Source: Actinomycetes bacterium
Lineage (GTDB): Bacteria; Actinomycetota; Thermoleophilia; RBG-16-64-13
Direction: 5' to 3'
NCBI GenBank assembly: GCA_024637035.1
Contig: JAGXFW010000008.1
Location: 79,981 to 143,980, forward strand
DNA length: 64,000 bases
Positions 18,241-31,436 of the stretch are shown here, piece by piece; position 1 is the first letter of the stretch; the number at the start of each line of letters is the position of its first letter. The position numbers and the translations under genes are program-made. Below the pieces are notes generated by a model. It was not told the DNA's origin, searched no databases, and worked only from the letters and a program-made list of their open reading frames with translations.

Positions 18241-19671
18241 CTACCGCCAGTACACCTCCACCCGCCGCGTCTCTGGGTTCTTCCTCCGACTCGGACACTT
18301 CAACGGGTGCACGATGATGCGGTCGAGTAGCAGATCGTACACGTCCCGCTGCGCCTGGACGCTCAGCACCCCCCACTGAGCGCGCGTCATTCCCCCGAGG
18401 TCCCCCCACATCCGCTCGATCACATCACCTTGCGCCAGATCCTCGCTTTGACGAGCCGCGCGCCTCAGTCTCTCCTCCGCCTTCTCCAGCCTCTTCAGCT
18501 GAAGCTCTCTGGCCGAGCGGTACTCCGCCTCGAGGATCTCTCCCCCGGCGTACATCGAGGTCAGCCGGCCAAGGGCTTGCTCTGCCTGCTCGACAGCTTC
18601 GCGGAGGGGCGTCAAAGGCTCAGGCGCCTTTCGCTGCTTCGGAGCCGCCGCACGTCGGAGCCTGGCGAACAGTCGGTCCTCGACCGTCGCAGCGAGCTCC
18701 TCAGCGCGCACTGCGGGCCCGGCCGCGCAGATCCCCTTCGTCTTGCCGTTGCAGGTGTAGTAGAGGACCGCGGGCGTGCGCTGGTACCGGGCATAGAGTC
18801 GCCCTCCGCATGTCCCACAGCGTACGTGGCGCCCCGTCAGGGGAACGCGGGGAGTACGCCCTTGCCGTGACGGTGCACGCCGGCGGGCCTCGTGGATGGC
18901 TATCGTCTTCTCGTAGGTCTCGAGAGGGACGATGGCTTCGATGTTCCCGCCGAAGACGAGCTCGCCGTCCAGCTCCCGCGCCCCCACCTGGACTGGGCGA
19001 AAGAGCATCACCCTCACGGTGGCGCGCTCCCAGGTGCGCCCCCTCTGCGTCGGGATCCCCTGCTTGTTGAGCTCTCGAGCGATCCGCTCCTCCCCCCACC
19101 CGTTATGGTAGCGGTCGTGGATCCAGAGCCGCACCTTCTGCTGCTCCGGTTCCGCCACTAGCCGGGAGCCCGCCTCACCTCGCTCCAGCCGGAAGCCGAA
19201 CGGCACTGGACCCCCGTGCCATCGCCCCGTGGACCGCAAGCGACGATGCGCGTCCCGGGTCCGGGAGCCGATCTTCACGCTCTCGTACTTGGCGAGCGCC
19301 GCGGAGATGGACCAGATGAGCGCAGACTCCGCGCTGCCGTCGTTCGGGTTGCCGGGGGAATCGCAGTGGATCCCGGCGCGTCTGAGCGCCGCCAGGATGG
19401 CGTGGAAGTCTTCCTCCTCGCGAGCCAGGCGATCGATCTTGTAGAAGAGGACGACGTCGCAGCCACCGGCCAGTGCGTCGTCGAGAAGCCGGTTCAGCCC
19501 CTCCCGGCGCCGGCGGTCCCACGTGCGGCCGGAGAGGTCGAGATCCTCGTACCAGCCGACGACAGCCCAGCCCTTCTGCGCAGCGAAACGCGAGATCTCG
19601 TCCCGCTGGATATCGGGGGAGATCATGTCGTCCCGGGCCTTACTGACCCTGACATATCCAAAGGCGCGCAT
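18241..19671 (-). CDS. Large serine recombinase (integrase)
   Basis: MRAFGYVRVSK...DLDLSGR resolvase catalytic domain. Recombinase domain. CGTCGG zinc-ribbon region and a C-terminal coiled coil. Confidence 0.9.
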   Translation of the reverse strand: MRAFGYVRVSKARDDMISPDIQRDEISRFAAQKGWAVVGWYEDLDLSGRTWDRRRREGLNRLLDDALAGGCDVVLFYKIDRLAREEEDFHAILAALRRAGIHCDSPGNPNDGSAESALIWSISAALAKYESVKIGSRTRDAHRRLRSTGRWHGGPVPFGFRLERGEAGSRLVAEPEQQKVRLWIHDRYHNGWGEERIARELNKQGIPTQRGRTWERATVRVMLFRPVQVGARELDGELVFGGNIEAIVPLETYEKTIAIHEARRRAPSRQGRTPRVPLTGRHVRCGTCGGRLYARYQRTPAVLYYTCNGKTKGICAAGPAVRAEELAATVEDRLFARLRRAAAPKQRKAPEPLTPLREAVEQAEQALGRLTSMYAGGEILEAEYRSARELQLKRLEKAEERLRRAARQSEDLAQGDVIERMWGDLGGMTRAQWGVLSVQAQRDVYDLLLDRIIVHPLKCPSRRKNPETRRVEVYWR

Positions 19672-19792: not shown

Positions 19793-22450
19793 ATGTTACC
19801 CGGGAGCATCTGGAGGCGGGGCGGTCTGAGGGTGCGCCTGGTGGTTCTTCTTCTCCTCGCGGTGCTGCCCGCGGTCCTCTTTGCAGCCTACGCGATGGTA
19901 GACGCTCGCCAGAGCGCGGTCCTCGATGCGCAGGAGAAATCAGCCCGCGCCGCCGACAGTCTCGGCATCTACGCCGAGCATCCCATCGCCCAAGCCCGTC
20001 AGGTGCTCTCCGCGGTGGCGGTCGCTTCGTTCGTTCGGCACGGCAGTCCGGAGGAGATCAGCGACTTTCTTGCGGATGTCCACGCCGAGAACCCCGAGTT
20101 CTCCTCGCTGCTCGTCACGGGGCCCGAAGGTCGGGTCATCGCTGGTAGTGTGGCGCTTCCGAGCCTTCCTGATCTGAGTGATCGAGACTACGTGAGACAG
20201 GTTCAGGAGACGAACGCCTTCAGCGTGGGCTCCTACTCAGTGGGGCGGGCAACGGGGAAACCCATCCTTACCATGGGTCAGCCGATCTTGGCCGAGGACG
20301 GCTCCCTTCTCGGAGTCGTGGTCACCGGAATCGAACTGGAGGTCTTTGGGTCCTTCGGCGACTCGGCCGACCTACCCGACGGGGCCAGCTTCAGCGTCGT
20401 CGATCGGAACGGCACCGTGCTCATGCGTCATCCTGACCCGCCGAGCTGGATCGGCAAGACGGTGGGAGACTCGGCCCTCGGAGAGCTCATGTTGGCGGGA
20501 GCCTCAGGTTCATCCGAGCTCTCCGGACCGGACGGCGTCACTCGACTCTACTCATACACGCCGGTGCCGGGAGCCGAGGGAGCTGTCTTCGTGGCCGTGG
20601 GCGTTCCACGAAGCGTTGCCTACGCTTCGGTCTCCGAGGTCGTGCTCCGTTTCGCCGTCGGGATGGCCGTCGTCGTTCTGCTCGTGACTCTTGCCGGTTG
20701 GCTCGGGGCCGACGTGCTGGTCCTGCGATCTGTACGCCGCCTGGTGACAGCGGCCCAGGGGCTCGACGGGGGGGATCTCTCGGTCCGCGCTGGAGCCGAC
20801 GGCGGCTCCAGCGAAATTGGCCAGCTAGCCCGGGCTTTCGATTCCATGGCGGACACCATCGAGCAGCGTACGGCTGCGCTCGGGGAATCGGAGGCCCGCT
20901 ACCGGACCATGGTGGAGTCGTCACCGAACGGGATCATCGTGCACCAGGGCGGCCGAATCGTCTTCGCGAACCGAGAGGCGGCCCGGATGGCGGGCGCATC
21001 GGCGTCGGCCGATATTGTCGGCAGGAGCGTCGCAGAGTTCGTACATCCTGATTCCCGGGACTTGATTCTCCGTCGCCTGGAAGAAGCCTACCGCTCCGGC
21101 GAGCCCCAAGACATGGAGGAGATGAGGCTGCTCCGGCTGGACGGCTCGGAGGTGGAGGTGGAGGTTGTCAGCATCCCCCTGGTCTACGGGGAAACCACCG
21201 CGATGAACACCATCATCCGGGATATCAGCGACCGTAAGCGTGCCGAGGAGGCCCTACGGGAGAGCCAGGAGAGGTCGGAGAGCGCTGAGCGCCTCGAGGC
21301 TGTGGGCCGCCTGGCGGGGGGCGTTGCCCACGACTTCAACAATCTCCTCACGGCCATCATCGGCTACGCAGACATCGGCCGCTCGCAATCACCAGAGGAT
21401 CCCGTCCTTCGCGTAGCACTCGAGGAGATCCAGACCGCAGCCGACCGGGCAGCCGCACTCACGCAGCAGCTCCTGGCTTTCTCGCGTCGGCAGCCCCTGC
21501 AGCCGCGGGTGCTCGATCTCAACCTCGTGACGGAGTCCACCTCCGGGCTCCTTCGGCGGCTGATCGGCGCAGACGTGCAACTTGCACTCAAGTGCATGGA
21601 AGGGCTCTGGCCGGTCGAGGCGGACCCCGGCCAGATCGAGCAGCTCATCACCAACCTGGTGATCAACGCCCGGGACGCCATGCCTGAAGGCGGGAAGATC
21701 ACCGTGGAGTCGGCGAACGTGGAGCTTGGGGAAGAGTGCGCGCACACTCACCCTGATTCGCGTCCGGGGCTCTATGTCATGTTGGCTGTGAGCGACACCG
21801 GCGCCGGGATCGATGCCGAGGCCCTTCCCTACATCTTCGAGCCCTTCTTCACTACGAAGGAGGTGGGCAAGGGCACGGGTCTTGGCCTCTCCACCGTGTA
21901 CGGCATCGTCAAGCAGAGTGGGGGCGACATCAGGGTGCGTAGCGAGCCGGGGCAGGGGACCACATTCAACGTCTACCTGCCTCGGGCGGAGAAGTTGGTC
22001 GACTGGACTCCGGAGAACAGACCAGCTCAGAGAGGCCGAGGCGAGGGCGGGACCGAGACCATCCTTCTTGTGGAGGACGAGCCCGCAGTGCGGGCGCTGG
22101 CCGCTCGGGTCCTGAAAGCCGCGGGTTACACGGTCCTCGAGGAAGGTGACCCTGCACGGGCGCTCATGCTCTTCGACAGGCATGAGGGGCTCATCCAGCT
22201 GCTGCTGACCGACGTCGTGTTGCCCGGAATGAGCGGCAAGGCACTCGCGGATTGCGTTGCGACGAAACAGGGCGCGCCTCCCGCCACCCTCTTCATGTCC
22301 GGGTACGCGCAGAGCGCTATTGTGCACGACGGTCGGCTGGACCTCGATGTGAACTTCCTGGAGAAACCCTTCACTCCGGAAGGTCTGCTGCGGAAGGTGC
22401 GGGAGGTGCTCGACCGGCAGAGCGACGGGCAGCTTGGTCTTCAGATCTGA
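19793..22450 (+). CDS. Hybrid sensor histidine kinase (TM-Cache-TM-HAMP-PAS-HisKA-HATPase-REC)
   Basis: GGVAHDFNNLL H-box. DTGAGI and GTGLGLS ATPase boxes. C-terminal ILLVEDE...LLLTDVVLPGMSG receiver. Confidence 0.9.
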   Translation: MLPGSIWRRGGLRVRLVVLLLLAVLPAVLFAAYAMVDARQSAVLDAQEKSARAADSLGIYAEHPIAQARQVLSAVAVASFVRHGSPEEISDFLADVHAENPEFSSLLVTGPEGRVIAGSVALPSLPDLSDRDYVRQVQETNAFSVGSYSVGRATGKPILTMGQPILAEDGSLLGVVVTGIELEVFGSFGDSADLPDGASFSVVDRNGTVLMRHPDPPSWIGKTVGDSALGELMLAGASGSSELSGPDGVTRLYSYTPVPGAEGAVFVAVGVPRSVAYASVSEVVLRFAVGMAVVVLLVTLAGWLGADVLVLRSVRRLVTAAQGLDGGDLSVRAGADGGSSEIGQLARAFDSMADTIEQRTAALGESEARYRTMVESSPNGIIVHQGGRIVFANREAARMAGASASADIVGRSVAEFVHPDSRDLILRRLEEAYRSGEPQDMEEMRLLRLDGSEVEVEVVSIPLVYGETTAMNTIIRDISDRKRAEEALRESQERSESAERLEAVGRLAGGVAHDFNNLLTAIIGYADIGRSQSPEDPVLRVALEEIQTAADRAAALTQQLLAFSRRQPLQPRVLDLNLVTESTSGLLRRLIGADVQLALKCMEGLWPVEADPGQIEQLITNLVINARDAMPEGGKITVESANVELGEECAHTHPDSRPGLYVMLAVSDTGAGIDAEALPYIFEPFFTTKEVGKGTGLGLSTVYGIVKQSGGDIRVRSEPGQGTTFNVYLPRAEKLVDWTPENRPAQRGRGEGGTETILLVEDEPAVRALAARVLKAAGYTVLEEGDPARALMLFDRHEGLIQLLLTDVVLPGMSGKALADCVATKQGAPPATLFMSGYAQSAIVHDGRLDLDVNFLEKPFTPEGLLRKVREVLDRQSDGQLGLQI

Positions 22451-22969: not shown

Positions 22970-25753
22970 TTAGGGGATAATCGATGCCCCTTCCGCCGCG
23001 GCGGACAGATTGAGTTCCAAGAGACGCGCAGCCACATCCTGCCCGCTAAGCGGATATTCCCACCCATACGCCGAGTACACCGCACGATCCAGGCGCTCAT
23101 GTGCATGTGCGAGCCACGTCGGACGCGCGTTGTAGAGGTTGGTCAGGGTCCTAGTCTTCAGGTCAGCCTCGGCCATTCCAGGCGGGGCAAGCCATCCCCG
23201 CCGGAGGTCGTCAAGTACTCGGGCCGCCTCCGCGATCTCCGTGCGTTGATTCTTGGTCGGCTCGGGGAATGGGAACGTTTCAAAGGTTGTCGTCGGTGTA
23301 TACCGGAACCCGCTCTCCACCTCGCGCACTTGCGTGCCCGTTCCCCGAGCCCACAACTCATGAACCGAAGAATGTAGTACGCCGAAAAAGTAGTCATCGT
23401 CACGAGCGAACACGATCAATGCGCTGTCTGGAACAGTCCCTATGTCGAGCCAGGCGAAAACGCGGTACTTGGCGTGGCGCGTCGTTGCGATATACCGGTG
23501 GAGACCCGAGAGGGCAAGCCGCATCTCTGGTCGAGGGCGCTCGTGGACCCACCATCGCTCGGCGTGAATCTTCAGATGGTTCGCGCTCCTAATCGGGAAG
23601 ACCGTCTGTTTGACGTACTCGAAGGGGCCCTCATACAATGCCGCTTGGCCAATCGGCATCTCGTTGAAATCAATAATCCACATACTACGTCGACCGTTGA
23701 ATTCTCTCCCGTTCACCCAGGGTCGGACTACGTCGGCGTTTTTCCTACCATCGGGGTTGGGCAGGGTGAGCAGCGCCTTCGCTATGCCGGAAGGGATCTC
23801 AAACGGCCCGCCTTTCTGGTCCCCGACAAATGCGATGCCGCAGTTCTCCTCCAGAACGCTTGCCTGAGTCAGGTCGACGCCGGTAGTCAGGTTCGCATTG
23901 ATGTTCGCCACTGCCGTACCGTTCAGGAATCGGACTCGCTCTGAACCATCGTCGAAACCGACAAGAGACACGTGAACGGCAGCGCCCTCGAGCATCCACT
24001 CTTCATCGGACCACGCAAGGAAGATGTCGCCCGTCTTCTTGATGTGTTCCAAGACCCGTCTGTTGGCCCCTCCGCGGATTCCTTGCGTCGCTAGCAGACC
24101 GACACGTTTGACCCTGTTCGCGCACACGCTCGCGCGGGCCTTTTCGAACCAGTAGCACACGAGGTCCGCCGCGCCCGGGACGCGCCCCCGATAGACACTA
24201 CGCAACGTGTCGACATACTCGTTGCCGAGAGCGCCGCGCATGAGCTTGTCTCCCACAAAGGGTGGATTTCCGATGATTGCCGTCGCCGCAGGCCACTCCG
24301 GCTCCCGTGGTTGCTCCGGATCACTGAGGTCGAGTACCGCGTCCCGGCACTCGATGTTTTCCAGAGGCCGGAGTATTGGGTCGCGCAAGTACGCGAACCC
24401 GTTGGACAGCATCCACTGGATCTCGCCGATCCAGATAACCACGCGAGCGAGCTCGGCTGCATAGTCATTCAGCTCAATCCCGAGCACCGCCTCCGGTCCA
24501 ACCTCGGGGAACTGAATCGGGGTTCCGAGAGTAAGGGACGCCCACAGGAGCGCTTCTCTCTCGAGATCCTTCAACGTCTTGAGGGCCAGATAGAGGAAGT
24601 TGCCGGAGCCGCAGGCCGGATCGAGGACGCGCACGGCCCGCAGTCGATCCAGAAAGGCGCCCATCACCGCTTGCGGGTTCCTATCCTTGGGCGTGCGGGC
24701 GGTGATCTTCTTGCCGTTCGCGATCAGACCTTCGACTTTGTGCTTTGTGGCCTCGAGATCGCGGCGGAGAGGTGCGATGAGCACGGGCTCGATCAGTCTG
24801 AGTATCGACTCGCGGTCAGTGTAGTGAGCCCCAAGCTGGGACCTCTTGCTGGGATCCAGGCCGCGTTCGAACAGTGTCCCGAAGATCGCTGGCTCAACCT
24901 GCGACCAGTCGAGCCGGGACACCTTGTCGATGAGCTTCACTTCTTCGAGCGTGAATGGGAGGACGTCGGCACCGTCGAAGAGCCCGCCGTTGAACCATTG
25001 GATCCGCTCGGCTCCGAACAGTCCTCCCTTGTCCGACATCTTGCGGAAGAGGTCGCTGATCCCTTCAGTGAAGATCTCCGGCTCTCGGCTCGCAGCGGCG
25101 GCGAGACGGCGGAGCAGTCCGCTCGGCAGGAGGCCGGCGTCCTCCGCGAACATGCAGAAGAGGAGCTTGTTCAGAAAGTGGGCAACGGCGTGCGGTTCGT
25201 GGCCTCGGGCCCTCAGTCGTTCGGCCAGAGAGGCAAACTGCTCAGCAGCCTCCGCTGTGAGCTCTTCTCGAGTCTTTCCGGGCCGCAGCTCCTCCGGGTG
25301 CTCCATGACGGCCCGCAAGATGCGAAGCGGTTCCTCTGGGTGCTCCAGAAGGTCATGCAGAGTGAAAGCGTGGACCGTCGCCGGCGTGTTCGTGAAGTTC
25401 GTGTGGACTTCGAAACGATTCAGATCGCAGACGACGAGCAGCGGTGGGTTGTCGAGGGCTTCACGGTACTGCAGAAGTTGCTGGTACGCGGCCTTGAGGT
25501 CCTTCCTTCTACCCTTGTACTCCCAAGCGAAGTAGCCGCGCCTCCAGACGTCCGCGAAACCGTCCCCGCCAGCGCTCTTGCCCGCGCCTTTCTCGAACGC
25601 GTAGTCCTTGCCGGTCGGGTCAGCCTCGTTGGGCGTGCGCACGCCGATCATGCGACAGAGGTCGATAAAGTGCTCTTGAGAGGCCGCCCGCTCGGTCGTT
25701 GTGCTGCCGGACCATTTGGTAGCGAATTCGGCTGGGGTCAGGGTGCTACTCAC
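22970..25753 (-). CDS. MmeI-family Type IIL/IIG restriction-modification enzyme (nuclease + N6-adenine methyltransferase + TRD)
   Basis: GFADVWRRGYFAWEYKGRRKDL gives the D-X9-E-X-K motif. Also LLFCMFAEDAG, LDWSQVEPAIFGTLFE, VLDPACGSGNFL (motif I) and IIGNPPFVG (motif IV). At 927 aa it is colinear with MmeI as I recall it. Confidence 0.85.
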   Translation of the reverse strand: MSSTLTPAEFATKWSGSTTTERAASQEHFIDLCRMIGVRTPNEADPTGKDYAFEKGAGKSAGGDGFADVWRRGYFAWEYKGRRKDLKAAYQQLLQYREALDNPPLLVVCDLNRFEVHTNFTNTPATVHAFTLHDLLEHPEEPLRILRAVMEHPEELRPGKTREELTAEAAEQFASLAERLRARGHEPHAVAHFLNKLLFCMFAEDAGLLPSGLLRRLAAAASREPEIFTEGISDLFRKMSDKGGLFGAERIQWFNGGLFDGADVLPFTLEEVKLIDKVSRLDWSQVEPAIFGTLFERGLDPSKRSQLGAHYTDRESILRLIEPVLIAPLRRDLEATKHKVEGLIANGKKITARTPKDRNPQAVMGAFLDRLRAVRVLDPACGSGNFLYLALKTLKDLEREALLWASLTLGTPIQFPEVGPEAVLGIELNDYAAELARVVIWIGEIQWMLSNGFAYLRDPILRPLENIECRDAVLDLSDPEQPREPEWPAATAIIGNPPFVGDKLMRGALGNEYVDTLRSVYRGRVPGAADLVCYWFEKARASVCANRVKRVGLLATQGIRGGANRRVLEHIKKTGDIFLAWSDEEWMLEGAAVHVSLVGFDDGSERVRFLNGTAVANINANLTTGVDLTQASVLEENCGIAFVGDQKGGPFEIPSGIAKALLTLPNPDGRKNADVVRPWVNGREFNGRRSMWIIDFNEMPIGQAALYEGPFEYVKQTVFPIRSANHLKIHAERWWVHERPRPEMRLALSGLHRYIATTRHAKYRVFAWLDIGTVPDSALIVFARDDDYFFGVLHSSVHELWARGTGTQVREVESGFRYTPTTTFETFPFPEPTKNQRTEIAEAARVLDDLRRGWLAPPGMAEADLKTRTLTNLYNARPTWLAHAHERLDRAVYSAYGWEYPLSGQDVAARLLELNLSAAAEGASIIP

Positions 25754-25808
25754 GCGTAATCAAGCTGCCGGAGGACGTCCAGGTTGTCGCCGTAGTAGAG
25801 GAGGTTGG

Positions 25809-26528
25809 TCATTCCAGCTCCAGCCTTCCCTGCGCCGACAATGCGATTTGGTTGATCAACGTAAAGCAGGCCAGGAGCCAAATCTTATGGTGCTTCCCGA
25901 AAGCCATATGCTCGTGCCTGGCCAGTTCATGTGCCGCCCCGGTGCGCTGGCAGCAAAGATCGAGTAATGCATCGTCGAGGGAGGCGTTCTCTTCGAGGTC
26001 GTACAGCCTTCTCAGGTGCTTAAGCCATGCCGCTTTGCCGCTCGGCTTCGTAAGTTGAGCAAGGTGCTTGACTTCCGCCTGCTCGAACGTGCAGCAGCGG
26101 GCGTTAAACGTGGCGTTGCGGCTCCTTAGCCATTCGGTCACTGTCTCTACGTAGTCCTCCAAGACCGCCACCATCTGGACGGCGGCCAAGTTGCTCAAAA
26201 TAGCGGGGCTGCGCGGGCCCACCGTCTCCACCCACGCGATCAGTGCGTCTCGTTCCTGTGCGATCAAACCGGCCTTTATGGCCTCGAAGCCTTGGATATA
26301 GACCAGCAAGACCCTCGCCCCATCTCTGAGGCCCTGGTTGAATAGGTCCGTATGCCTCCTGAGTTCCGGGTCGAGAGTCTCGCCATCGAGACTCGCTCGG
26401 CCAAACGACTCCTCCAACGGAGTCTCCAGACTACTCGCACCTTGCTGTGTTAGGCGCCGCCGTCCAGCCATCCGAGTGATTGATCCTTCCCAAGTTCTGA
26501 CTGTCTTCCTCTGCGGTGTCATGCACAT
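25809..26528 (-). CDS. Hypothetical protein with a C-terminal HEPN-like (AbiD/F-like) Rx4H motif
   Basis: Helical protein. QRTGAAHELARHEH lies near the C-terminus. Starts 19 nt downstream of the XRE gene stop. Confidence 0.5.
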   Translation of the reverse strand: MCMTPQRKTVRTWEGSITRMAGRRRLTQQGASSLETPLEESFGRASLDGETLDPELRRHTDLFNQGLRDGARVLLVYIQGFEAIKAGLIAQERDALIAWVETVGPRSPAILSNLAAVQMVAVLEDYVETVTEWLRSRNATFNARCCTFEQAEVKHLAQLTKPSGKAAWLKHLRRLYDLEENASLDDALLDLCCQRTGAAHELARHEHMAFGKHHKIWLLACFTLINQIALSAQGRLELE

Positions 26529-26546: not shown

Positions 26547-26882
26547 TCAGCCCTGACTGGTGTTCCCAGCCACCAACCCCTCCACATCCTCCAGATCCAC
26601 CGTCCCCGCCCGCATCCCCTCACTGATCATCCGATGCGCCAGCGCCTCCCGGTACTCCAGGAAGTACGTCGGCGACACCTCCAGCGCCGCGGCGAACTTC
26701 TCGACGGTGCGGAGTGCCTGGGAGTTCATGCGGTGACCGCGCTTGCCGGCGAGGTACTGGCTCACCGTCGAAGGGGCGACATCGGCGCGGGCCATGAGTT
26801 CGGTGTCCGTGAGGTTCCGAGCGGCGAGCAACGTCTTGAGCGCAACGCGGATCGGTTCATTGCTCCTCTCGGGTACAGTCAT
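26547..26882 (-). CDS. XRE-family HTH regulator, paralogue of the CI-like repressor
   Basis: TELMARADVAPSTVSQYLAGKRG HTH. LRTVEKFAAALEVSPTYFLEYR is shared with 30748..31107. Confidence 0.85.
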   Translation of the reverse strand: MTVPERSNEPIRVALKTLLAARNLTDTELMARADVAPSTVSQYLAGKRGHRMNSQALRTVEKFAAALEVSPTYFLEYREALAHRMISEGMRAGTVDLEDVEGLVAGNTSQG

Positions 26883-26890
26883 GCCACGAT

Positions 26891-26911
26891 TCTAGGCGGG
26901 CGCCACCTAGA
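26891..26911. promoter_or_regulatory. Imperfect 21-bp palindrome in the divergent intergenic region
   Basis: TCTAGGCGGGCGCCACCTAGA has 8 of 10 arm positions pairing. A further CCTAGA lies about 35 nt downstream. Confidence 0.35.
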
Positions 26912-26979
26912 TACTTCACAGTACTGAGTGGTCATGCTAGCCTAGACCTCCATGCAGCTACCATGGAAGGCTGGGACAC

Positions 26980-27246
26980 ATGCCTCCTGACTGTCCCGAC
27001 GACCGAGAACACATAGTCCCCGCGCTCTCCCCTTTCCGTCCCCTCGACCCACCCCTCCTGACCCCCGGCGACGTCTGGTGCACCAAGTGCGGCAGCACCG
27101 GCCAGCCCCGTGTCCGCCACTGCCCCGGCGGTGATCACTGCCGCTTCGGCGTCGGCGGCGAACACCTGCACCTGATCTGCCCTGACTGCCGGCACGTGGA
27201 GCTCACGGAGACGTACGAGGCGTTCCAGGCGCAGGCGGGCTCGTAG
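26980..27246 (+). CDS. Small zinc-ribbon protein
   Basis: CTKC...HCPGGDHC...CPDC. Strong G/C at third codon positions. Confidence 0.55.
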   Translation: MPPDCPDDREHIVPALSPFRPLDPPLLTPGDVWCTKCGSTGQPRVRHCPGGDHCRFGVGGEHLHLICPDCRHVELTETYEAFQAQAGS

Positions 27247-27484
27247 GTCGATCACTCGTCCGGCTCGTCCTGCTCCTCTCCGGCTGCTTCGGTGCGCTCG
27301 CAGTCGGCAGCGGGATGACTTCGGTCGGCGGCCGCAGCCGTGGCTCCGGCTTGGTGCCCTCGAGCCAGATCTGCGTGGGGATGATCAGGTTCGGGCGGTA
27401 GCCGCAGTCGTCCTCGGGTAGGCGGGGCTTGGGGACGGGGAAGGGGATGATCTTGGCGGGTGGGTCATTCGCCCTGCGATGCAC
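27203..27484 (-). CDS. Proline-rich hypothetical protein
   Basis: The first ~55 codons end almost uniformly in G/C. Sequence KIIPFPVPKPRLPEDD. The 3' end overlaps the convergent ORF by 44 nt. Confidence 0.45.
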   Translation of the reverse strand: MHRRANDPPAKIIPFPVPKPRLPEDDCGYRPNLIIPTQIWLEGTKPEPRLRPPTEVIPLPTASAPKQPERSRTSRTSDRPTSPPAPGTPRTSP

Positions 27485-27659
27485 ATTGCCTCCTCGCCGT
27501 TCTCACGGGAGCTATCGCATCGCGAGCGGTCGCGGATGGGTAGCGGCTCTTTATTTCGCTGCCCTTTGGGTCGGCTTCATCACTACTCCCCTGTGTCCGC
27601 CCCCCGTACACCTTCACGTATGCCGCCTGCGCCAATGCCCACCCCGGCGAGCCACGTTG

Positions 27660-28697
27660 CTAGGCCTCACCGCCGTCGAACACATATCCACAGAATCGGC
27701 ATTTGCGGGCCGCAGTTCGAACCTGCTCTGCGCAGTCCGGACAGGTCTTCAAGTCCTCCGACGGGACAGGGGACGTTTGCGCCTCATGTGCCGCATGTGC
27801 GGATTCGATGCGAGCCACGACGGGCGCAAGAAGCTCACTCAACTGGCTCGGTGTAAACGCAGTATGGAGGAATTCAAGCTGGCAAGAGTCCCAATGGAAG
27901 CTGATGACGCTTTCGGTAGAGGTCGTGGTCTTGGTGGTCAGCTTGTTCAGTACACTCGCGATTGCTGCGCCCTCGATAATCCCTGTGAGACCAAAGCCTC
28001 CTCCAATCCAGCCCCCTCCGGAGGTTTTCGAAACGACGCCAGGGCCAGCGAACTGCAACCCGCTTATCTCCTCGTATTCGATTGACCAGTGGTTCGCAGT
28101 GGATCCGATGATGAGGAGCACCAGGTCTCTTTCGAAAAGCAACGTACAAGGGCCGGTGGCGGCACCCGAGATTCCGGAAACACGGGTGATTTCTCCATCC
28201 AGGCGCCGGCGGGTGGGATCGGAGACAACTGGTGCTGGGCTTAAGCCGACTGTGCTGTAGAGGTCGAGCAGCTCCCGAGTCAGGAACTTGCGCTGTTCCG
28301 ACAAAGGAGCCGATTGCCAACGATGCCGGCCGGAATCACGGCCACACAGGGGACACATCCACTTGTTGACCCCCGGGACAGTGTCTTGGGGAGGGATTTC
28401 AGAGGCACCTTTGCAGCTAGGACATCTACGCTGGTACGTGATGAGACCGCAGACGCCGCAAGTCCTCTCCGCCACGTCTCCCGGATAGATGCCGCCCGCG
28501 CCGCAGGAATCGCACACGGCGGCCACGCCAGAAGCTGTGAGACTTTGGACGCCCGAGAACCCGGTTGGCACTTCCACTACTGCGCCGCACGAAAGGCATC
28601 TACTTTTCTTACCTGCGAATTCCTCGGCGATATGGAAGTCGCGCCCGCAATCCTGACACTGAAAGTCGATCATCCCGTTCTCACTATTCTCTTCCAC
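27660..28697 (-). CDS. Multi-zinc-ribbon protein (three N-terminal ribbons, one C-terminal) with a central Gly-zipper-containing domain
   Basis: Eight CxxC pairs. Central GGGWIGGGFGLTGIIEGAAIA stretch. C-terminal CPDCAEQVRTAARKCRFCGYVF. Start is either GTG 28697 or ATG 28673. Confidence 0.7.
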   Translation of the reverse strand: MEENSENGMIDFQCQDCGRDFHIAEEFAGKKSRCLSCGAVVEVPTGFSGVQSLTASGVAAVCDSCGAGGIYPGDVAERTCGVCGLITYQRRCPSCKGASEIPPQDTVPGVNKWMCPLCGRDSGRHRWQSAPLSEQRKFLTRELLDLYSTVGLSPAPVVSDPTRRRLDGEITRVSGISGAATGPCTLLFERDLVLLIIGSTANHWSIEYEEISGLQFAGPGVVSKTSGGGWIGGGFGLTGIIEGAAIASVLNKLTTKTTTSTESVISFHWDSCQLEFLHTAFTPSQLSELLAPVVARIESAHAAHEAQTSPVPSEDLKTCPDCAEQVRTAARKCRFCGYVFDGGEA

Positions 28698-28706
28698 CCT
28701 CAGCGC
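28691..28706 (-). repeat. Copy 1 of the exact 16-mer CTTCCACCCTCAGCGC
   Basis: Identical to 30467..30482. Overlaps the 5' end of 27660..28697. Confidence 0.9.
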
Positions 28707-28776
28707 GCCTCACCCGGCAACTACCGACCAAGCGCCCCCTCGCAGTTCTGCTGGTCTCCGGGGGCGCGACGGCCTG

Positions 28777-29499
28777 CTACTGCACCTTCTCCCAATACGC
28801 GACCTCCATACCGGGGATGGTGATCTCCCACCCCGCTTGACTCGTATAGGAATACGAACCAGTGCATTCGCCCCAGACGCGAATGACGTCTTCTTCGTAG
28901 ATGTCGACCGTTCCTGGGCAGTAGGCCCACACAACATCGTTGTAATCGTAGCCGTATGAGCCTTCCGTAACAGCGAGTCGCATGACGGTTCCCGATGAGT
29001 CTTCCATGATCTGGATGACTTCACCGGTGAACCGGAGACGTTCGCCGATGTACGTATCTGGGTTCTTGTTCAGCTTCCGGTACTCGACTGTGTCGGTCGA
29101 ATCTACATATTCCTGTCGCCGCTGCGCTGCGGGGATCGTCGTGGTGGTGGTAGGCGGCTCGGTGGAGGTTGTCGTCGTGGGCACTGTCGTCGTTGTGGTG
29201 GTCGGCGCCTCAGTCGTCGTCGTCGTGGCCTCACTCGTCGCCACCGCCGCGGCCTGCTGAGTGGTCGTCGTCGTTGGCGACGACGACGGAGCGATGCCCG
29301 CGAACATAAAGAGCAGGACGAAAAGCCCGCCGACAACCAAGCCAATCTTGCCGAACGTGCCGCGGCGCTTCCAGAACGCTGAGATCTTCCCGAAGAACTC
29401 CCCGGCATCGAACGGGACTATCGGCTCGATCTTACCGCCGCAGTACTTGCAGAAGCTCCCTGGTGCAACGCCCGGTTGATCGCAGTGTGGACACTTCAT
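28777..29499 (-). CDS. Zinc-ribbon / single-TM / Thr-Pro-rich linker / beta-rich C-terminal domain protein
   Basis: CPHC...CKYC. TM helix IGLVVGGLFVLLFMFAGI. Runs of T in the linker. AGGAGG lies 8 nt before the ATG. Confidence 0.8.
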   Translation of the reverse strand: MKCPHCDQPGVAPGSFCKYCGGKIEPIVPFDAGEFFGKISAFWKRRGTFGKIGLVVGGLFVLLFMFAGIAPSSSPTTTTTQQAAAVATSEATTTTTEAPTTTTTTVPTTTTSTEPPTTTTTIPAAQRRQEYVDSTDTVEYRKLNKNPDTYIGERLRFTGEVIQIMEDSSGTVMRLAVTEGSYGYDYNDVVWAYCPGTVDIYEEDVIRVWGECTGSYSYTSQAGWEITIPGMEVAYWEKVQ

Positions 29500-29502
29500 C
29501 TC

Positions 29503-29520
29503 CCGTACCTCCTACTTCGG
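29503..29520 (-). repeat. Copy 1 of the exact 18-mer CCGTACCTCCTACTTCGG (contains the SD on the minus strand)
   Basis: Identical to 29654..29671. Its reverse complement is CCGAAGTAGGAGGTACGG. Confidence 0.9.
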
Positions 29521-29522
29521 TC

Positions 29523-29651
29523 CTATGACGACAGCGCGCCTCCGGTACACACGAGACCCAACAGCGCGAGTACCACAAGGGCCACGACCACGAAGAGCAG
29601 ACACCCGCAGCCCATCCCGAACCCCTGCCTGACCGACCCCCGTTCCCCCAC
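29523..29651 (-). CDS. 42-aa hydrophobic (single-TM) peptide
   Basis: GTG 29651 lies 7 nt after AGGAGG. Sequence ...GMGCGCLLFVVVALVVLALLGLVCTGG. Confidence 0.5.
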   Translation of the reverse strand: MGERGSVRQGFGMGCGCLLFVVVALVVLALLGLVCTGGALSS

Positions 29652-29653
29652 CG

Positions 29654-29671
29654 CCGTACCTCCTACTTCGG
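29654..29671 (-). repeat. Copy 2 of the exact 18-mer CCGTACCTCCTACTTCGG
   Basis: See 29503..29520. Confidence 0.9.
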
Positions 29672-29673
29672 AT

Positions 29674-30429
29674 TCAACCGCCAAGACACTCCGGCCGCAG
29701 TACGGTCTGCTCGAGTAGATCAAGGACTTGCTCGGCCGACGCCCGATGCTCCGTTTGCCGCCACAACTCTTTTCGGATTGCCTCGAGGACTTTCTCTGAG
29801 CGGAGAACTTTCGCGAGAGACTCGGGCGACGTGGCCCGCCGCGCCTGCCAGAGTTCATCGATGCGCTTCTTCTTCAGGGACTCGGAAGTGAGATAGAAGA
29901 GGCTGGCCGCCTTGTCGGAGAGTCCGCCTTCGGCGAGAAGGTCGACCTCGAAGGCCAGTTCCGTCACCACAGGCACCGCCGCGGTGATGTGGTACACCTG
30001 CCATGTCGCGCCGTTCGTGAGAGCCACCCACTCAACCCCCTCATTGAGCGCGTAGTTCTGAACCTGGCGCAGATGCTTCAGCCCCAGCTTAGTGGAAACC
30101 CTCTTGACCTCCACAAAAGCTACGAGCTGCTTGTCGACACGGACGCCGAAATCCGCGAACTCTCCACGAACCCGGTACTCGGTGGTCAGATCCGCGTACT
30201 TGTCGTACCCGAGCACGTCGCAGAGGAAGTCGGTGACAAGAAGTCGGGTGTCCCCTTCGTTGGCGTCACGAGCGGCCAGGTCGGCTAGAGGCTTGCCGAA
30301 TCGCCTGATGCCAGCCTTCACGCGATCGCGCGCCGTCTTCTCCCATTTCGGGACGGACGCCGACTTCGACTTCGCCGCTACGGCATCAGCCTCGCCCGCG
30401 CCCGCCGCTGTCCCCAGTTCGTCTGTCAT
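29674..30429 (-). CDS. HsdR-N-like PD-(D/E)xK nuclease-fold protein with a helical C-terminal half
   Basis: EGDTRLLVTDFLCDVLGY...ADFGVRVDKQLVAFVEVKR gives D...ExK. ATG 30429 is preferred over the track start GTG 30486. Confidence 0.7.
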   Translation of the reverse strand: MTDELGTAAGAGEADAVAAKSKSASVPKWEKTARDRVKAGIRRFGKPLADLAARDANEGDTRLLVTDFLCDVLGYDKYADLTTEYRVRGEFADFGVRVDKQLVAFVEVKRVSTKLGLKHLRQVQNYALNEGVEWVALTNGATWQVYHITAAVPVVTELAFEVDLLAEGGLSDKAASLFYLTSESLKKKRIDELWQARRATSPESLAKVLRSEKVLEAIRKELWRQTEHRASAEQVLDLLEQTVLRPECLGG

Positions 30430-30466
30430 ACGATGACCCTCCCGCAGATCGAGTTCCGAGTGGTCC

Positions 30467-30482
30467 CTTCCACCCTCAGCGC
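30467..30482 (-). repeat. Copy 2 of the exact 16-mer CTTCCACCCTCAGCGC
   Basis: Lies 38 nt upstream of ATG 30429. Opens a 15-codon mini-ORF whose TGA overlaps that ATG. Confidence 0.9.
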
Positions 30483-30747
30483 ACACCTAATCCGCAAATA
30501 CCGAACAAACGTTCACCCCTAGCGTACGCGATGCAACGGCCGTCTCAGTTCCAGAGACCTGCACGGAGAATACTAGCGTTTGCAGGAGAGTTTCTGTCCG
30601 AAGCCCAGCGTAGAGTGACGACTCCAGAGAGATGGGAGGGTGCGATGATGACGGGGCGAGAGGCGCTTCTGGCGGCGGCGACAATCCTGGAGGAGGTGCC
30701 GGAGGATGATCCGCTGGCGGTTTGGGCGTCGTCTATCGCTGCGTACG

Positions 30748-31107
30748 TCAAGGAGAATCTAGCTCCTCGTCACCCTTCCGTACTCGCGCCCCCTCAATGA
30801 TCATCTCGAGGGCTTCGAGGGAAATGAGTCCTTCTGCCATGGCCTCCCATACCAACCGCTCTGCCTTCGCCTGGCGGTACTCCAGGAAGTACTCAGGGTC
30901 TACAGAGAGTGCGCGGGCAAGTTTCTCGACGGTACGGAGGGAACGAGGGTCGAGGTGGTGTCCGCGCTTGCCCGAGATGTACCTGCTGATCGTGGCCGGG
31001 GTGACGTCAGCGGCAGCAGCGAGCTCGGTGTGCTCGTCGATACCCCTCTCGTGCATCAGATATGTGAGTGCTTGGCCTATGGGCATGTCAGTTCGCTCTC
31101 GCTCCAT
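30748..31107 (-). CDS. CI-like XRE-family repressor
   Basis: TELAAAADVTPATISRYISGKRG HTH. Divergent from a Cro-like gene across a repeat-rich 107-bp region. Confidence 0.85.
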   Translation of the reverse strand: MERERTDMPIGQALTYLMHERGIDEHTELAAAADVTPATISRYISGKRGHHLDPRSLRTVEKLARALSVDPEYFLEYRQAKAERLVWEAMAEGLISLEALEMIIEGARVRKGDEELDSP

Positions 31108-31214: not shown

Positions 31215-31436
31215 ATGGACCGGATCGCGGAACTCATCGACAGATACAACAAGGACTTCCTGGCATCAGGCGAGCAACCCATGAACCAACGCCGACTGGC
31301 TGAGTTGCTCGGCACGAGCGAGGCACAGGTGAGCCGTCACGTGAGAGGGCACACGAACATGTCGCTCGCAACGGCTCGCAGATACGCCCAGGTACTCCGT
31401 TGTCGGGTCGACGACCTCTATTCTGACGTCCGATGA
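31215..31436 (+). CDS. Cro-like HTH regulator
   Basis: QRRLAELLGTSEAQVSRHVRG HTH. 73 aa. First gene of the rightward operon. Confidence 0.8.
   Translation: MDRIAELIDRYNKDFLASGEQPMNQRRLAELLGTSEAQVSRHVRGHTNMSLATARRYAQVLRCRVDDLYSDVR

What the first reader, a model, noticed from the sequence alone, without database searches (positions are those of the whole stretch)
27203..30486. Repressor-linked cassette of a PD-(D/E)xK nuclease, a 42-aa TM peptide, a Zn-ribbon/TM/surface protein, a multi-Zn-ribbon protein and a Pro-rich protein: candidate undescribed prophage defence or exclusion system
Five minus-strand ORFs lie downstream of, and co-oriented with, the CI-like repressor (30748..31107). (i) 29674..30429 has an N-terminal half that reads like the HsdR-N / PD-(D/E)xK fold (EGDTRLLVTDFL, then ADFGVRVDKQLVAFVEVKR giving D...ExK), followed by a helical C-terminal half. 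(ii) 29523..29651 is a 42-aa peptide that is essentially one hydrophobic helix, with AGGAGG 7 nt before its GTG. (iii) 28777..29499 has a CPHC/CKYC zinc ribbon, one TM helix, a Thr/Pro-rich linker and a ~130-aa beta-rich domain predicted to lie outside the membrane. (iv) 27660..28697 has three N-terminal zinc ribbons and one C-terminal ribbon around a central domain with a Gly-zipper-like stretch (GGGWIGGGFGLTGIIEGAAIA). (v) 27203..27484 is a Pro-rich 93-aa protein. Third codon positions are visibly less G/C-rich here than in neighbouring phage genes. The position mirrors lambda rexAB, which are exclusion genes transcribed with cI in lysogens. I do not recognise this gene combination as any named defence system. 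A nuclease plus membrane components plus Zn-ribbon modules is the kind of parts list seen in abortive-infection systems.
Basis: partly seen in the sequence, partly recalled or inferred. Interest (0 to 1): 0.8.

Follow-up and report, generated by a model that had tools for sequence, protein, structure and literature searches.

The report
Mosaic prophage cargo slot, not one system
The five genes beside the prophage repressor are real (one doubtfully), but they are separately exchangeable cargo pieces (a lone restriction-type nuclease, a small membrane gene pair and a zinc-ribbon protein of unknown role) in a variable slot of a kind already described, not one new five-gene defence system.

Summary
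The sequence features are there. Four of the five ORFs have homologues; the Pro-rich ORF is weakly supported.

DNA comparison with related prophages splits 27.2-30.5 kb into independent blocks:
- the nuclease, 29674-30429;
- the 42-aa peptide plus the Zn-ribbon/TM/surface protein, 28755-29671;
- the four-Zn-ribbon protein, 27660-28697;
- a conserved backbone holding the Pro-rich ORF.

Each block occurs elsewhere without the others. None of 268 fetched loci pairs the nuclease with the other cargo genes.

The nuclease is a confident PD-(D/E)xK/HSDR_N_2 protein with an invariant D...ExK. Its family is large, well conserved and usually solitary. It recurs next to repressor, ImmA/IrrE or integrase genes in at least five temperate-phage lineages, including Thermus phage Riverbug.

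The surface protein belongs to a common phage-borne family with a weakly Slp-like ectodomain. The multi-Zn-ribbon protein has a PH-like core and belongs to a family of more than 1,000 clusters.

The most likely picture is a variable cargo slot beside the immunity repressor, carrying a stand-alone restriction-like nuclease and a candidate exclusion membrane pair, next to an MmeI-type enzyme. A 2024 paper describes this kind of region in Thermus phages. Interest is moderate. One residual lead is that the nuclease sits directly before a K+ channel gene in four other lineages.

The parts
30748..31107 (-). CI-like HTH immunity repressor, 119 aa, with no peptidase domain. It lies divergent from a cro-like gene at 31215-31436(+).
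   Evidence: Pfam HTH_26/HTH_3, E=6e-8. PHROG transcriptional repressor families. Only 42-50% identical to its counterparts in related prophages, which suggests variable immunity specificity.
30465..30600 (.). Conserved intergenic element between the repressor and the first cargo gene. It holds a GAAC-N4-GTTC palindrome (30503-30514) and a CCTGCA...TGCAGG inverted repeat (30558-30586). It is a possible LexA/operator and promoter region.
   Evidence: Conserved in L001 and L088, although the gene that follows differs (nuclease in one, multi-Zn-ribbon in the other). The palindrome occurs twice in 64 kb against a chance mean of 0.8. Function is inferred only.
30645..30800 (+). Small ORF convergent with the repressor (MMTGREALL...). 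It is a possible SOS-controlled antirepressor. Its status is uncertain.
   Evidence: Equivalent 59-aa and 56-aa genes are called at the same place in L001 and L088. Identity between the window and L001 is 46%.
29674..30429 (-). Cargo block A: a stand-alone PD-(D/E)xK nuclease of the HSDR_N_2 / 'predicted type IV restriction endonuclease' family, 251 aa. It has a nuclease domain followed by a helical C-terminal half.
   Evidence: DNA homology to L001 (80%) and L007 (75%) starts exactly at its stop codon.
29523..29651 (-). Cargo block B, gene 1: a 42-aa single-pass membrane peptide.
   Evidence: Strong RBS. TM helix. Purifying selection against L091. Always found with gene 2 in L091-L093.
28777..29499 (-). 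Cargo block B, gene 2: cytoplasmic Zn ribbon, one TM helix, Thr-rich linker and a ~105-aa weakly Slp-like ectodomain.
   Evidence: phrog_26645 at E=4e-25 and phrog_5319. 14 of 19 family members weakly match Pfam Slp. 266 relatives in viral contigs. Block 28755-29671 is 86% identical in DNA to L091, where it sits in a different context.
27660..28697 (-). Cargo block C: three N-terminal Zn ribbons, a PH-like core carrying an invariant SGGGWIGGGFG insertion, and a C-terminal UPF0547 Zn ribbon.
   Evidence: It is 61% identical to a gene placed directly after the repressor in prophage L088, which lacks blocks A and B.
27203..27484 (-). Pro-rich ORF. It is part of the conserved prophage backbone, and its coding status is doubtful.
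   Evidence: It lies in a block (26572-27466) that is 92% identical to L001 and L088. There is no codon-position bias, the start is not conserved, and relatives have a frameshift.
26980..27246 (+). Convergent 88-aa Zn-ribbon ORF (backbone), divergent from HTH2.
   Evidence: GC3 of 0.84. 85-90% amino-acid identity in L001 and L088. Moderate third-position bias.
26547..26882 (-). Second HTH regulator (HTH2). It is highly conserved backbone and marks the far edge of the variable slot.
   Evidence: Pfam HTH_3/HTH_26. 94-95% identical in L001 and L088. Strong third-position bias.
22970..25753 (-). Neighbouring MmeI-family type IIG/IIL restriction-modification enzyme. This is a known defence gene and is not part of the finding's coordinates.
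   Evidence: Pfam MmeI_N, MmeI_hel, MmeI_Mtase and MmeI_TRD. PADLOC REase_MTase_IIG at E=1e-275.

Best explanation
The stretch 27.2-30.5 kb is the variable cargo ('moron') slot of a temperate prophage, probably of a Thermoleophilia-like actinobacterium. The slot lies between the immunity repressor, with its conserved regulatory element, and a conserved second HTH unit.

The slot has been filled by at least three independently acquired pieces.

(A) A solitary PD-(D/E)xK nuclease.
- It resembles the nuclease-plus-helical head of type I, IIG and IIL enzymes, and its family usually has no conserved partner gene.
- I infer that it works alone as a restriction-type (type IV-like) nuclease on incoming foreign DNA in lysogens.

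(B) A two-gene membrane module: the 42-aa peptide plus a Zn-ribbon/TM/Thr-rich/Slp-like surface protein.
- I infer that it acts at the envelope, as a superinfection-exclusion or lysogenic-conversion factor.

(C) A cytoplasmic multi-Zn-ribbon protein with a PH-like core, of unknown role.

The Pro-rich ORF is backbone, not cargo.

Shown: the gene models, the folds and domains, the mosaic structure, and the independence of the blocks.
Inferred: expression in the lysogen and every biochemical role.
For: Mosaic structure:
- blastn gives discrete blocks whose breakpoints fall at gene ends.
- 26572-27466 is 92% identical to both L001 and L088.
- 27674-28672 matches L088 only.
- 28755-29671 is 86% identical to L091 only.
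- 29674-30368 matches L001 and L007 only.

The same slot in related prophages holds other cargo:
- nuclease plus a K+ channel in L001-L006;
- the multi-Zn-ribbon gene plus a NYN-domain gene in L088.

Independence:
- Among 268 loci, 98 have nuclease relatives, 85 have surface-protein relatives and 3 have multi-ribbon relatives.
- No locus pairs the nuclease with any other cargo gene. Only the 42-aa gene and the surface protein co-occur.
- The nuclease family has no conserved neighbour in 80 genomes, and the next gene is convergent in 41 of 70.

Nuclease identity.

Lysogeny-module placement of nuclease relatives:
- Riverbug: repressor, then a 4-bp gap, then the nuclease, a TM/periplasmic protein and the integrase.
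- L104, L106 and L100 show similar placement.

The surface-protein family is common in viral contigs, including one site between ImmA and the integrase.

No cassette protein reached significance against any PADLOC model.

PMC11437467 describes the same type of variable region and proposes defence plus exclusion.
Against: - The nuclease, the 42-aa gene and the surface-protein gene are separated by only 22-23 nt, so they are probably co-transcribed here and could interact.
- In phage contexts a membrane protein directly follows the nuclease more often than in chromosomes: 5 of 12 against 5 of 70, Fisher p=0.005.
- A K+ channel gene follows the nuclease in four independent lineages. The nuclease therefore does have a membrane partner in some settings.
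- The high conservation of the nuclease across phyla (about 60-70% identity) is unusual for restriction enzymes.
- No expression or phenotype data exist.
Confidence: 0.62

Rival explanations
1. The nuclease and the membrane genes form one functional unit: a membrane-coupled restriction or abortive-infection system with interchangeable membrane partners. The nuclease would be the cytoplasmic sensor or effector. The downstream membrane protein would position it at the DNA-entry site or act as the killing effector, as in lambda RexAB or mycobacterial Mpr. In this window the partner would be the 42-aa peptide plus the Zn-ribbon/TM/ectodomain protein. In other lineages it would be a K+ channel.
For: - A K+ channel with a TVGYGD filter lies directly downstream of the nuclease in four independent lineages: the L001 family, L007, L068 and L105. 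The channels have diverged to 31% identity, and in L001 the genes overlap.
- Anchor/linker/ectodomain proteins flank the nuclease in Riverbug and L104. DUF4190, a 2-TM protein, overlaps its 3' end in L104.
- Membrane neighbours are enriched in phage contexts, p=0.005.
- In L091 the 42-aa/surface-protein block sits just after another PD-(D/E)xK gene, a methyltransferase-Mrr_cat fusion.
- IN93 ORF38 fuses Mrr_cat to a TM segment and an extracellular domain.
- Mpr is a nuclease-TM-linker-ectodomain defence protein (PMC12596739).
Against: - The membrane partners are not homologous to each other.
- The nuclease is solitary in most genomes.
- The 42-aa/surface-protein block occurs without this nuclease family.
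- Relatives of the surface protein sit in tail or lysis modules of other phages.
- Lysogeny modules are rich in membrane proteins anyway, so the enrichment is confounded.
Confidence: 0.2
2. The nuclease is not an anti-phage gene. It would instead be an SOS-linked DNA-processing or lysogeny-control factor, expressed on DNA damage from a LexA-controlled promoter in the conserved upstream element.
For: - An invariant GAAC-N4-GTTC palindrome lies 75-85 nt upstream of the nuclease start, inside a conserved element.
- Conservation across phyla is unusually high for a restriction enzyme.
- The gene sits next to ImmA/IrrE and repressor genes in several phages.
Against: - In L088 the same element precedes a different gene, so it belongs to the backbone rather than to the nuclease.
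- The palindrome may instead serve the convergent small ORF.
- No promoter was detected.
- The best fold and profile matches are restriction-enzyme nuclease domains.
- The gene has a patchy, mobile distribution, and a tyrosine integrase lies nearby in 7 of the genome loci.
Confidence: 0.1
3. Some or all of the ORFs are chance open frames in GC-rich DNA and are not genes.
For: - The Pro-rich ORF shows no codon-position bias, has a non-conserved start and is frameshifted in relatives.
- High-GC DNA gives many long spurious ORFs.
Against: Four of the five ORFs have homologues with conserved domains and RBS sites. The 42-aa gene also shows an excess of synonymous changes.
Confidence: 0.05

Closest known systems
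Variable defence/exclusion region between the LexA-like repressor and the integrase of Thermus phages IN93, Tsatsa and Riverbug (PMC11437467, Viruses 2024)
   Same: - The position is the same, on the lysogeny side next to the repressor.
- The parts list is the same: a restriction-type nuclease plus lipoproteins or TM proteins with extracytoplasmic domains.
- Gene content varies between related phages in the same way.
- Riverbug gp55 is a direct homologue of the window's nuclease (38% identity, 88% coverage, HSDR_N_2) and is followed by a TM/linker/ectodomain protein.
   Different: - The host phylum and the phage backbone differ.
- The membrane proteins are not homologous.
- IN93's nuclease is Mrr_cat, not HSDR_N_2.
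- The window adds the multi-Zn-ribbon/PH-like gene and an MmeI enzyme.
- The Thermus proposal is itself untested.
N-terminal endonuclease domains of type IIG enzymes (DrdV, BpuSI) and type I HsdR; Pfam HSDR_N_2 / COG2810 'predicted type IV restriction endonuclease'
   Same: - Same PD-(D/E)xK fold with D...ExK.
- A helical segment follows the nuclease domain.
- These are the best Foldseek and Pfam matches.
   Different: - The protein has no methyltransferase, target-recognition or motor domain.
- It has no detectable similarity to the window's own MmeI N-terminus.
- Its substrate is unknown.
Lambda RexAB and mycobacteriophage Sbash gp30/31 or Butters gp30/31 (prophage-expressed cytoplasmic protein plus membrane protein)
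   Same: - The genes lie next to the repressor.
- A cytoplasmic protein is followed by membrane protein(s).
- Related prophages carry a true ion channel after the nuclease.
   Different: - There is no homology to RexA or RexB.
- The window has no multi-pass channel.
- The partners are not conserved.
Mycobacterial Mpr (N-terminal nuclease, TM, linker, DUF4352 ectodomain; PMC12596739)
   Same: - An actinobacterial phage-resistance protein with a short cytoplasmic part, one TM helix, a flexible linker and a beta-rich outer domain. This layout is close to that of 28777-29499.
- A DUF4352 lipoprotein lies near the block's homologue in L091.
   Different: - The window protein's ectodomain does not match DUF4352 and is only weakly Slp-like.
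- Its cytoplasmic part is a Zn ribbon, not a known nuclease.

Membership tests
PD-(D/E)xK nuclease, Pfam HSDR_N_2 (ORF 29674-30429) | Profile match above the curated cut-off | tested here: met
   29 bits against a cut-off of 25, E=1.2e-6. The precomputed PF13588 annotation is present on most relatives.
PD-(D/E)xK nuclease, Pfam HSDR_N_2 (ORF 29674-30429) | Catalytic D...(D/E)xK residues present and conserved | tested here: met
   D93, E107 and K109 are invariant in 30 homologues.
PD-(D/E)xK nuclease, Pfam HSDR_N_2 (ORF 29674-30429) | Restriction-endonuclease-like alpha/beta fold | tested here: met
   AlphaFold2 model at pLDDT 84.9. The top PDB matches are DrdV, BpuSI, HsdR and TT1808, but the scores are modest (E=3e-3, TM 0.57 on the 146-residue DrdV fragment). 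Best BFVD match is an HsdR_N-domain phage protein at E=1e-8.
PD-(D/E)xK nuclease, Pfam HSDR_N_2 (ORF 29674-30429) | Nuclease activity | not testable with these tools
   Needs biochemistry.
Type IV (modification-dependent) restriction enzyme | No cognate methyltransferase or specificity subunit | tested here: met
   No conserved neighbour in 80 genome loci, and the downstream gene is convergent in 41 of 70.
Type IV (modification-dependent) restriction enzyme | A domain that reads modified bases, and cleavage of modified DNA only | tested here: inconclusive
   The C-terminal helical half has no profile match and no informative fold match. Substrate dependence cannot be tested here.
   Each block is found without the others. 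There are no co-occurrences in 268 loci apart from the 42-aa gene with the surface protein. The metagenome scan found no close full-length relative of the multi-ribbon gene.
Published defence systems (PADLOC-DB v2) | Significant match of any cassette protein to a system model | tested here: not met
   Only marginal hits appeared (E=0.0075 and 0.011). The neighbouring MmeI gene matches strongly. DefenseFinder was not available.
Lambda RexAB-type exclusion | RexA-like and RexB-like proteins, RexB being a multi-pass channel | tested here: not met
   No PADLOC or Pfam match. The window's membrane proteins are single-pass.
Lambda RexAB-type exclusion | Co-transcription with the repressor in lysogens | not testable with these tools
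   There is a 318-bp gap holding a conserved element and a convergent ORF. The scan found no promoter and no terminator in that gap. RNA-seq of a lysogen is needed.
Prophage superinfection-exclusion surface proteins (Ltp/Sie-like) for 28777-29499 | Membrane or lipid anchor with an extracytoplasmic domain, encoded in the lysogeny or moron region of temperate phages | tested here: met
   One TM helix, a Thr-rich linker and a conserved ectodomain. Some relatives are lipoproteins. There are 266 viral-contig relatives, one of them between ImmA and the integrase.
Prophage superinfection-exclusion surface proteins (Ltp/Sie-like) for 28777-29499 | Homology to a characterised exclusion protein, or a block of DNA entry | tested here: not met
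   No Lipoprotein_Ltp or DUF4352 match. The only hits are weak Slp matches, best E=5e-5 and below the cut-off. The phenotype cannot be tested here.
PH-like (bacterial PH) domain proteins for 27660-28697 | PH fold of the core domain | tested here: met
   AlphaFold2 model at pLDDT 72.5. The top-ranked Foldseek matches are mostly PH or PH-like (PTB, FERM) domains, including bacterial DUF1696. Scores are weak (E=6e-3 and above). No Pfam PH family matches.

The most novel reading that the evidence does not exclude
The HSDR_N_2 nuclease family may be the cytoplasmic half of a modular, membrane-coupled anti-phage system with swappable membrane partners. The partner would be a Kv-like K+ channel in four lineages. 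In this window it would be the 42-aa peptide plus the Zn-ribbon/TM/ectodomain protein. The system would couple events at the envelope to DNA cleavage or to membrane depolarisation. That would make it a split, Rex-like or Mpr-like system not yet described.
Probability: 0.15. Interest if true: 0.7.

Novelty: new member of a known kind. Interest (0 to 1): 0.38.

Why it matters
- It shows how to read such regions. Tight spacing and a plausible parts list do not make a system, and comparison with sister prophages resolved the region into exchangeable units.
- It flags three uncharacterised but widespread families as candidates for prophage-encoded defence or exclusion in poorly studied Actinomycetota: the solitary HSDR_N_2 nuclease (phrog_17239), the Slp-like surface protein, and the Zn-ribbon/PH-like/SHOCT family.
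- The nuclease with a K+ channel, seen in sister loci, is the most testable new lead.
- For this window itself the finding is of moderate interest. The type of region has already been described for Thermus phages and mycobacteriophages.

Tried and rejected
- PADLOC, NCBIfam and sequence searches of PDB gave nothing significant for the cassette proteins.
- DNA search of the INPHARED phage collection with 27.0-31.2 kb found no match.
- Rfam at a permissive threshold found nothing in 25.5-32.5 kb.
- The promoter scan found none, and the terminator scan was at background level.
- I first took the K+ channel to be the nuclease's general partner. I rejected that after the 80-genome survey. I later re-qualified it as a real association in four lineages.
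- A ~40-bp repeat at 25764-25808, which looked like a possible cassette-exchange site, turned out to be the 5' remnant of an N6_N4 methyltransferase gene.
- Riverbug gp56 and the L104 Zn-ribbon/TM protein are not homologous to the window's surface protein. Only the layout is similar.
- IN93's nuclease is not in the same family.
- The nuclease is not a paralogue of the MmeI N-terminus.
- The viral-contig scan with the multi-ribbon profile found nothing. The metagenome scan matched only its C-terminal ribbon.
- No small TM ORF accompanies the 49%-identical surface-protein homologue in L094.

Full report
**Setting**

The window holds a prophage in high-GC DNA.
- A serine integrase lies at 18241-19671(-).
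- An MmeI-family restriction-modification enzyme lies at 22970-25753(-).
- A CI-like HTH repressor lies at 30748-31107(-), divergent from a cro-like gene.
- To the right come SbcCD-like early genes, a ParB-methyltransferase, the large terminase, portal, protease and capsid genes.
- GC falls from about 0.68 to about 0.60 across 22-33 kb.
- The nearest relatives come from Thermoleophilia and other Actinomycetota MAGs and from subsurface metagenomes.

**Observation**

All five ORFs exist.

ORF (i), 29674-30429:
- It matches HSDR_N_2 above the Pfam cut-off and matches phrog_17239 over its full length.
- D93, E107 and K109 are invariant in 30 relatives.

ORF (ii), 29523-29651:
- It is a 42-aa single helix with a strong RBS.
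- It is under purifying selection: differences fall 4/3/15 by codon position against its homologue in L091.

ORF (iii), 28777-29499, has CPHC/CKYC, one TM helix, 38 Thr and a conserved C-terminal domain.

ORF (iv), 27660-28697, has eight CxxC motifs, giving three N-terminal ribbons and one C-terminal UPF0547 ribbon. It also has an invariant SGGGWIGGGFG motif.

ORF (v), 27203-27484, is Pro-rich but weakly supported.
- Its start is not conserved and relatives have a 1-nt indel.
- It shows no third-position bias.
- It overlaps a better-supported convergent 88-aa Zn-ribbon ORF at 26980-27246(+).

GC3 is 0.65-0.81 across the five ORFs, against 0.80-0.92 in structural genes.

**Is it one system? No.**

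blastn against loci that hold relatives of single proteins cuts the region into blocks whose edges fall at gene ends.
- 26572-27466 (HTH2, the 88-aa ORF and the Pro-rich ORF) is 92% identical to two sister prophages, the L001 family and L088.
- 27674-28672 (multi-ribbon gene) matches only L088. There it sits directly after the repressor and is followed by a NYN-domain gene. L088 has no nuclease, no 42-aa gene and no surface protein.
- 28755-29671 (42-aa gene plus surface protein) is 86% identical to L091-L093. Homology starts at the first RBS and ends just after the second stop codon. There the block follows a methyltransferase-Mrr_cat fusion gene and precedes Thr-rich lipoproteins.
- 29674-30368 (nuclease) matches the L001 family and L007. 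In both, a K+ channel gene follows it.

Three sister prophages therefore share the same slot boundaries but carry different cargo.

Over all 268 loci fetched, no locus pairs the nuclease with the surface protein, the 42-aa gene or the multi-ribbon gene. Of these loci, 98 have nuclease relatives, 85 have surface-protein relatives and 3 have multi-ribbon relatives.

In 80 genomes the nuclease has no conserved neighbour. The largest neighbour clusters cover at most 9 loci, and the next gene is convergent in 41 of 70 loci.

A metagenome scan found no close full-length relative of the multi-ribbon gene.

**The nuclease**
- More than 2,000 relatives of about 250 aa were found, typically 60-70% identical across Actinomycetota, Chloroflexota, Acidobacteriota and Armatimonadota. 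Some sources annotate them as 'predicted type IV restriction endonuclease'. COG2810 and PF13588 are grouped with HsdR_N in the PD-(D/E)xK survey PMC3424549.
- The AlphaFold2 model (pLDDT 85) has a nuclease core followed by a helical half.
- The best PDB matches are the nuclease heads of DrdV and BpuSI (type IIG) and HsdR (type I). Scores are modest.
- The best viral match is an HsdR_N-domain phage protein at E=1e-8.
- It is unrelated to the window's own MmeI N-terminus.

Its placement in phages is the useful part.
- In Thermus phage Riverbug the order is LexA-like repressor, a 4-bp gap, the nuclease homologue, a TM/linker/periplasmic protein and the integrase.
- In viral contig L104 the order is HTH, IrrE, a Zn-ribbon/TM protein, the nuclease, DUF4190 and a serine recombinase.
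- In L106 the order is nuclease, IrrE and a tyrosine integrase.
- In L100 the order is an HTH_3 protein and then the nuclease.
- A tyrosine integrase is a neighbour in 7 of the genome loci.

From this I infer a stand-alone restriction-type enzyme carried by temperate elements and expressed from the lysogeny module. Its substrate and its modification dependence are unknown.

**The 42-aa gene and the surface protein**
- The C-terminal ~105 residues define a family found in Actinomycetota and Bacillales. Members are anchored by a TM helix or a lipobox, with low-complexity linkers.
- 14 of 19 members weakly match Pfam Slp, best E=5e-5.
- PHROGs holds several matching families.
- 266 viral-contig relatives were found. 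They sit between ImmA and the integrase (L109), beside the lysis genes (L108), or between the tail chaperones and the tape-measure gene in gut phages.
- The 42-aa partner is seen only with the closest relatives.

I infer an envelope-level exclusion or conversion factor. Mycobacterial Mpr has a similar layout, but the ectodomain here is not DUF4352.

**The multi-ribbon protein**
- The model (pLDDT 72.5) gives a PH-like core. The top-ranked Foldseek matches are mostly PH or PH-like domains, at weak scores. The Gly-rich motif forms a low-confidence insertion.
- An exhaustive profile search found 1,407 clusters at 50% identity, 241 of them at E<=1e-30.
- Eight of ten sampled members end in SHOCT, not in the UPF0547 ribbon seen here.
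- Genomic contexts vary.
- Function is unknown.

**Residual link between the nuclease and membrane proteins**
- A Kv-like K+ channel (TVGYGD filter) directly follows the nuclease in four independent lineages. The channels have diverged to 31% identity. This is far more than chance adjacency would give.
- In phage contexts 5 of 12 lineages have a membrane protein immediately downstream, against 5 of 70 genome loci (p=0.005). The comparison is confounded by the nature of lysogeny modules.
- IN93 fuses an Mrr_cat nuclease domain to a TM segment and an ectodomain.
- I therefore keep a 0.2 rival in which the nuclease and the membrane block cooperate.

**Regulation**
- Between the repressor and the nuclease lies a ~135-nt element conserved in both sister prophages, whichever cargo gene follows. 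It carries an invariant GAAC-N4-GTTC palindrome (30503-30514) and a CCTGCA...TGCAGG inverted repeat (30558-30586).
- A small convergent ORF (30645-30800) is also called at the same place in the sister prophages.
- The repressor lacks a peptidase domain.
- A LexA-controlled antirepressor or a LexA-controlled cargo promoter is an idea only. No promoter or terminator was detected there.
- Co-transcription with the repressor, as for rexAB, is therefore untested here.

**Prior knowledge and verdict**

PMC11437467 (2024) describes a variable region between the repressor and the integrase of Thermus phages, including Riverbug. The region holds restriction-type nucleases plus lipoproteins or TM-ectodomain proteins. 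The authors propose, without testing, that it provides defence plus exclusion, and that such modules move between unrelated phages. Prophage variable regions with defence genes are also known in mycobacteriophages (titles).

The window is thus a new member of a known kind of region, built from uncharacterised families. It is not a categorically new five-gene system.

Noticed in passing
window 30465-30600 and 30645-30800(+): A conserved ~135-nt element lies between the repressor and the first cargo gene. It has an invariant GAAC-N4-GTTC palindrome (30503-30514), which resembles a Gram-positive/actinobacterial LexA box, and a CCTGCA...TGCAGG inverted repeat (30558-30586). A small ORF convergent with the repressor lies beside it. 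The repressor has no peptidase domain, so this could be an SOS-controlled antirepressor unit.
   Followed up: partly
L001 8001-9618; L007 6775-8394; L068 97-1841; L105 5004-6697: A Kv-like K+ channel gene (TVGYGD filter and an S4-like Arg repeat) directly follows the HSDR_N_2 nuclease in four independent lineages, overlapping it in L001. The channels have diverged to 31% identity. This is a candidate two-gene, Rex-like system that I did not find described.
   Followed up: partly
window 25764-25808: The 5' remnant of an N6_N4 DNA methyltransferase (MTNLLYYGDNLDVLRQL) lies immediately upstream of the MmeI start. The same sequence begins an intact methyltransferase-Mrr_cat gene and a frameshifted remnant in L091. 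In the L001-type sister prophages an N6_N4_Mtase-family gene, followed by a kinase/ORC-like gene, occupies the region beyond HTH2 where the window carries MmeI. This points to cargo replacement by recombination at gene 5' ends.
   Followed up: partly
window 26547-27246: HTH2 (26547-26882) and a divergent 88-aa Zn-ribbon ORF (26980-27246) flank an almost invariant 97-bp intergenic region with the palindrome CTAGGTGGCGCCCGCCTAG. HTH2 is 94-95% identical in sister prophages, while the immunity repressor is only 42-50% identical. This may be a second regulatory switch, or a controller for the restriction genes beyond it.
   Followed up: partly
window 19793-22450: A PAS/histidine-kinase/receiver hybrid kinase lies between the serine integrase and the MmeI gene. 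Related kinases lie near the nuclease/channel pair in L007 and near an integrase plus a surface-protein homologue in L094. It may be prophage cargo or a preferred integration neighbourhood. The prophage ends were not mapped.
   Followed up: no
window 29500-29522 and 29652-29673: The ~20-nt junctions before the 42-aa gene and before the surface-protein gene are near-identical (CCGAAGTAGGAGGTACGG). The repeat is also present in L091.
   Followed up: no
L117 4995-5723; L142 4995-5711: In an abundant group of viral contigs from gut metagenomes, a full-length relative of the Zn-ribbon/TM/ectodomain protein sits between the tail-chaperone-like genes and the tape-measure gene. This is an unusual place for a membrane protein gene.
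   Followed up: no
window 25809-26528: A 239-aa ORF between HTH2 and MmeI has no match in Pfam, PHROGs, PADLOC or NCBIfam. In L088 the same position holds 335-aa and 209-aa genes.
   Followed up: no
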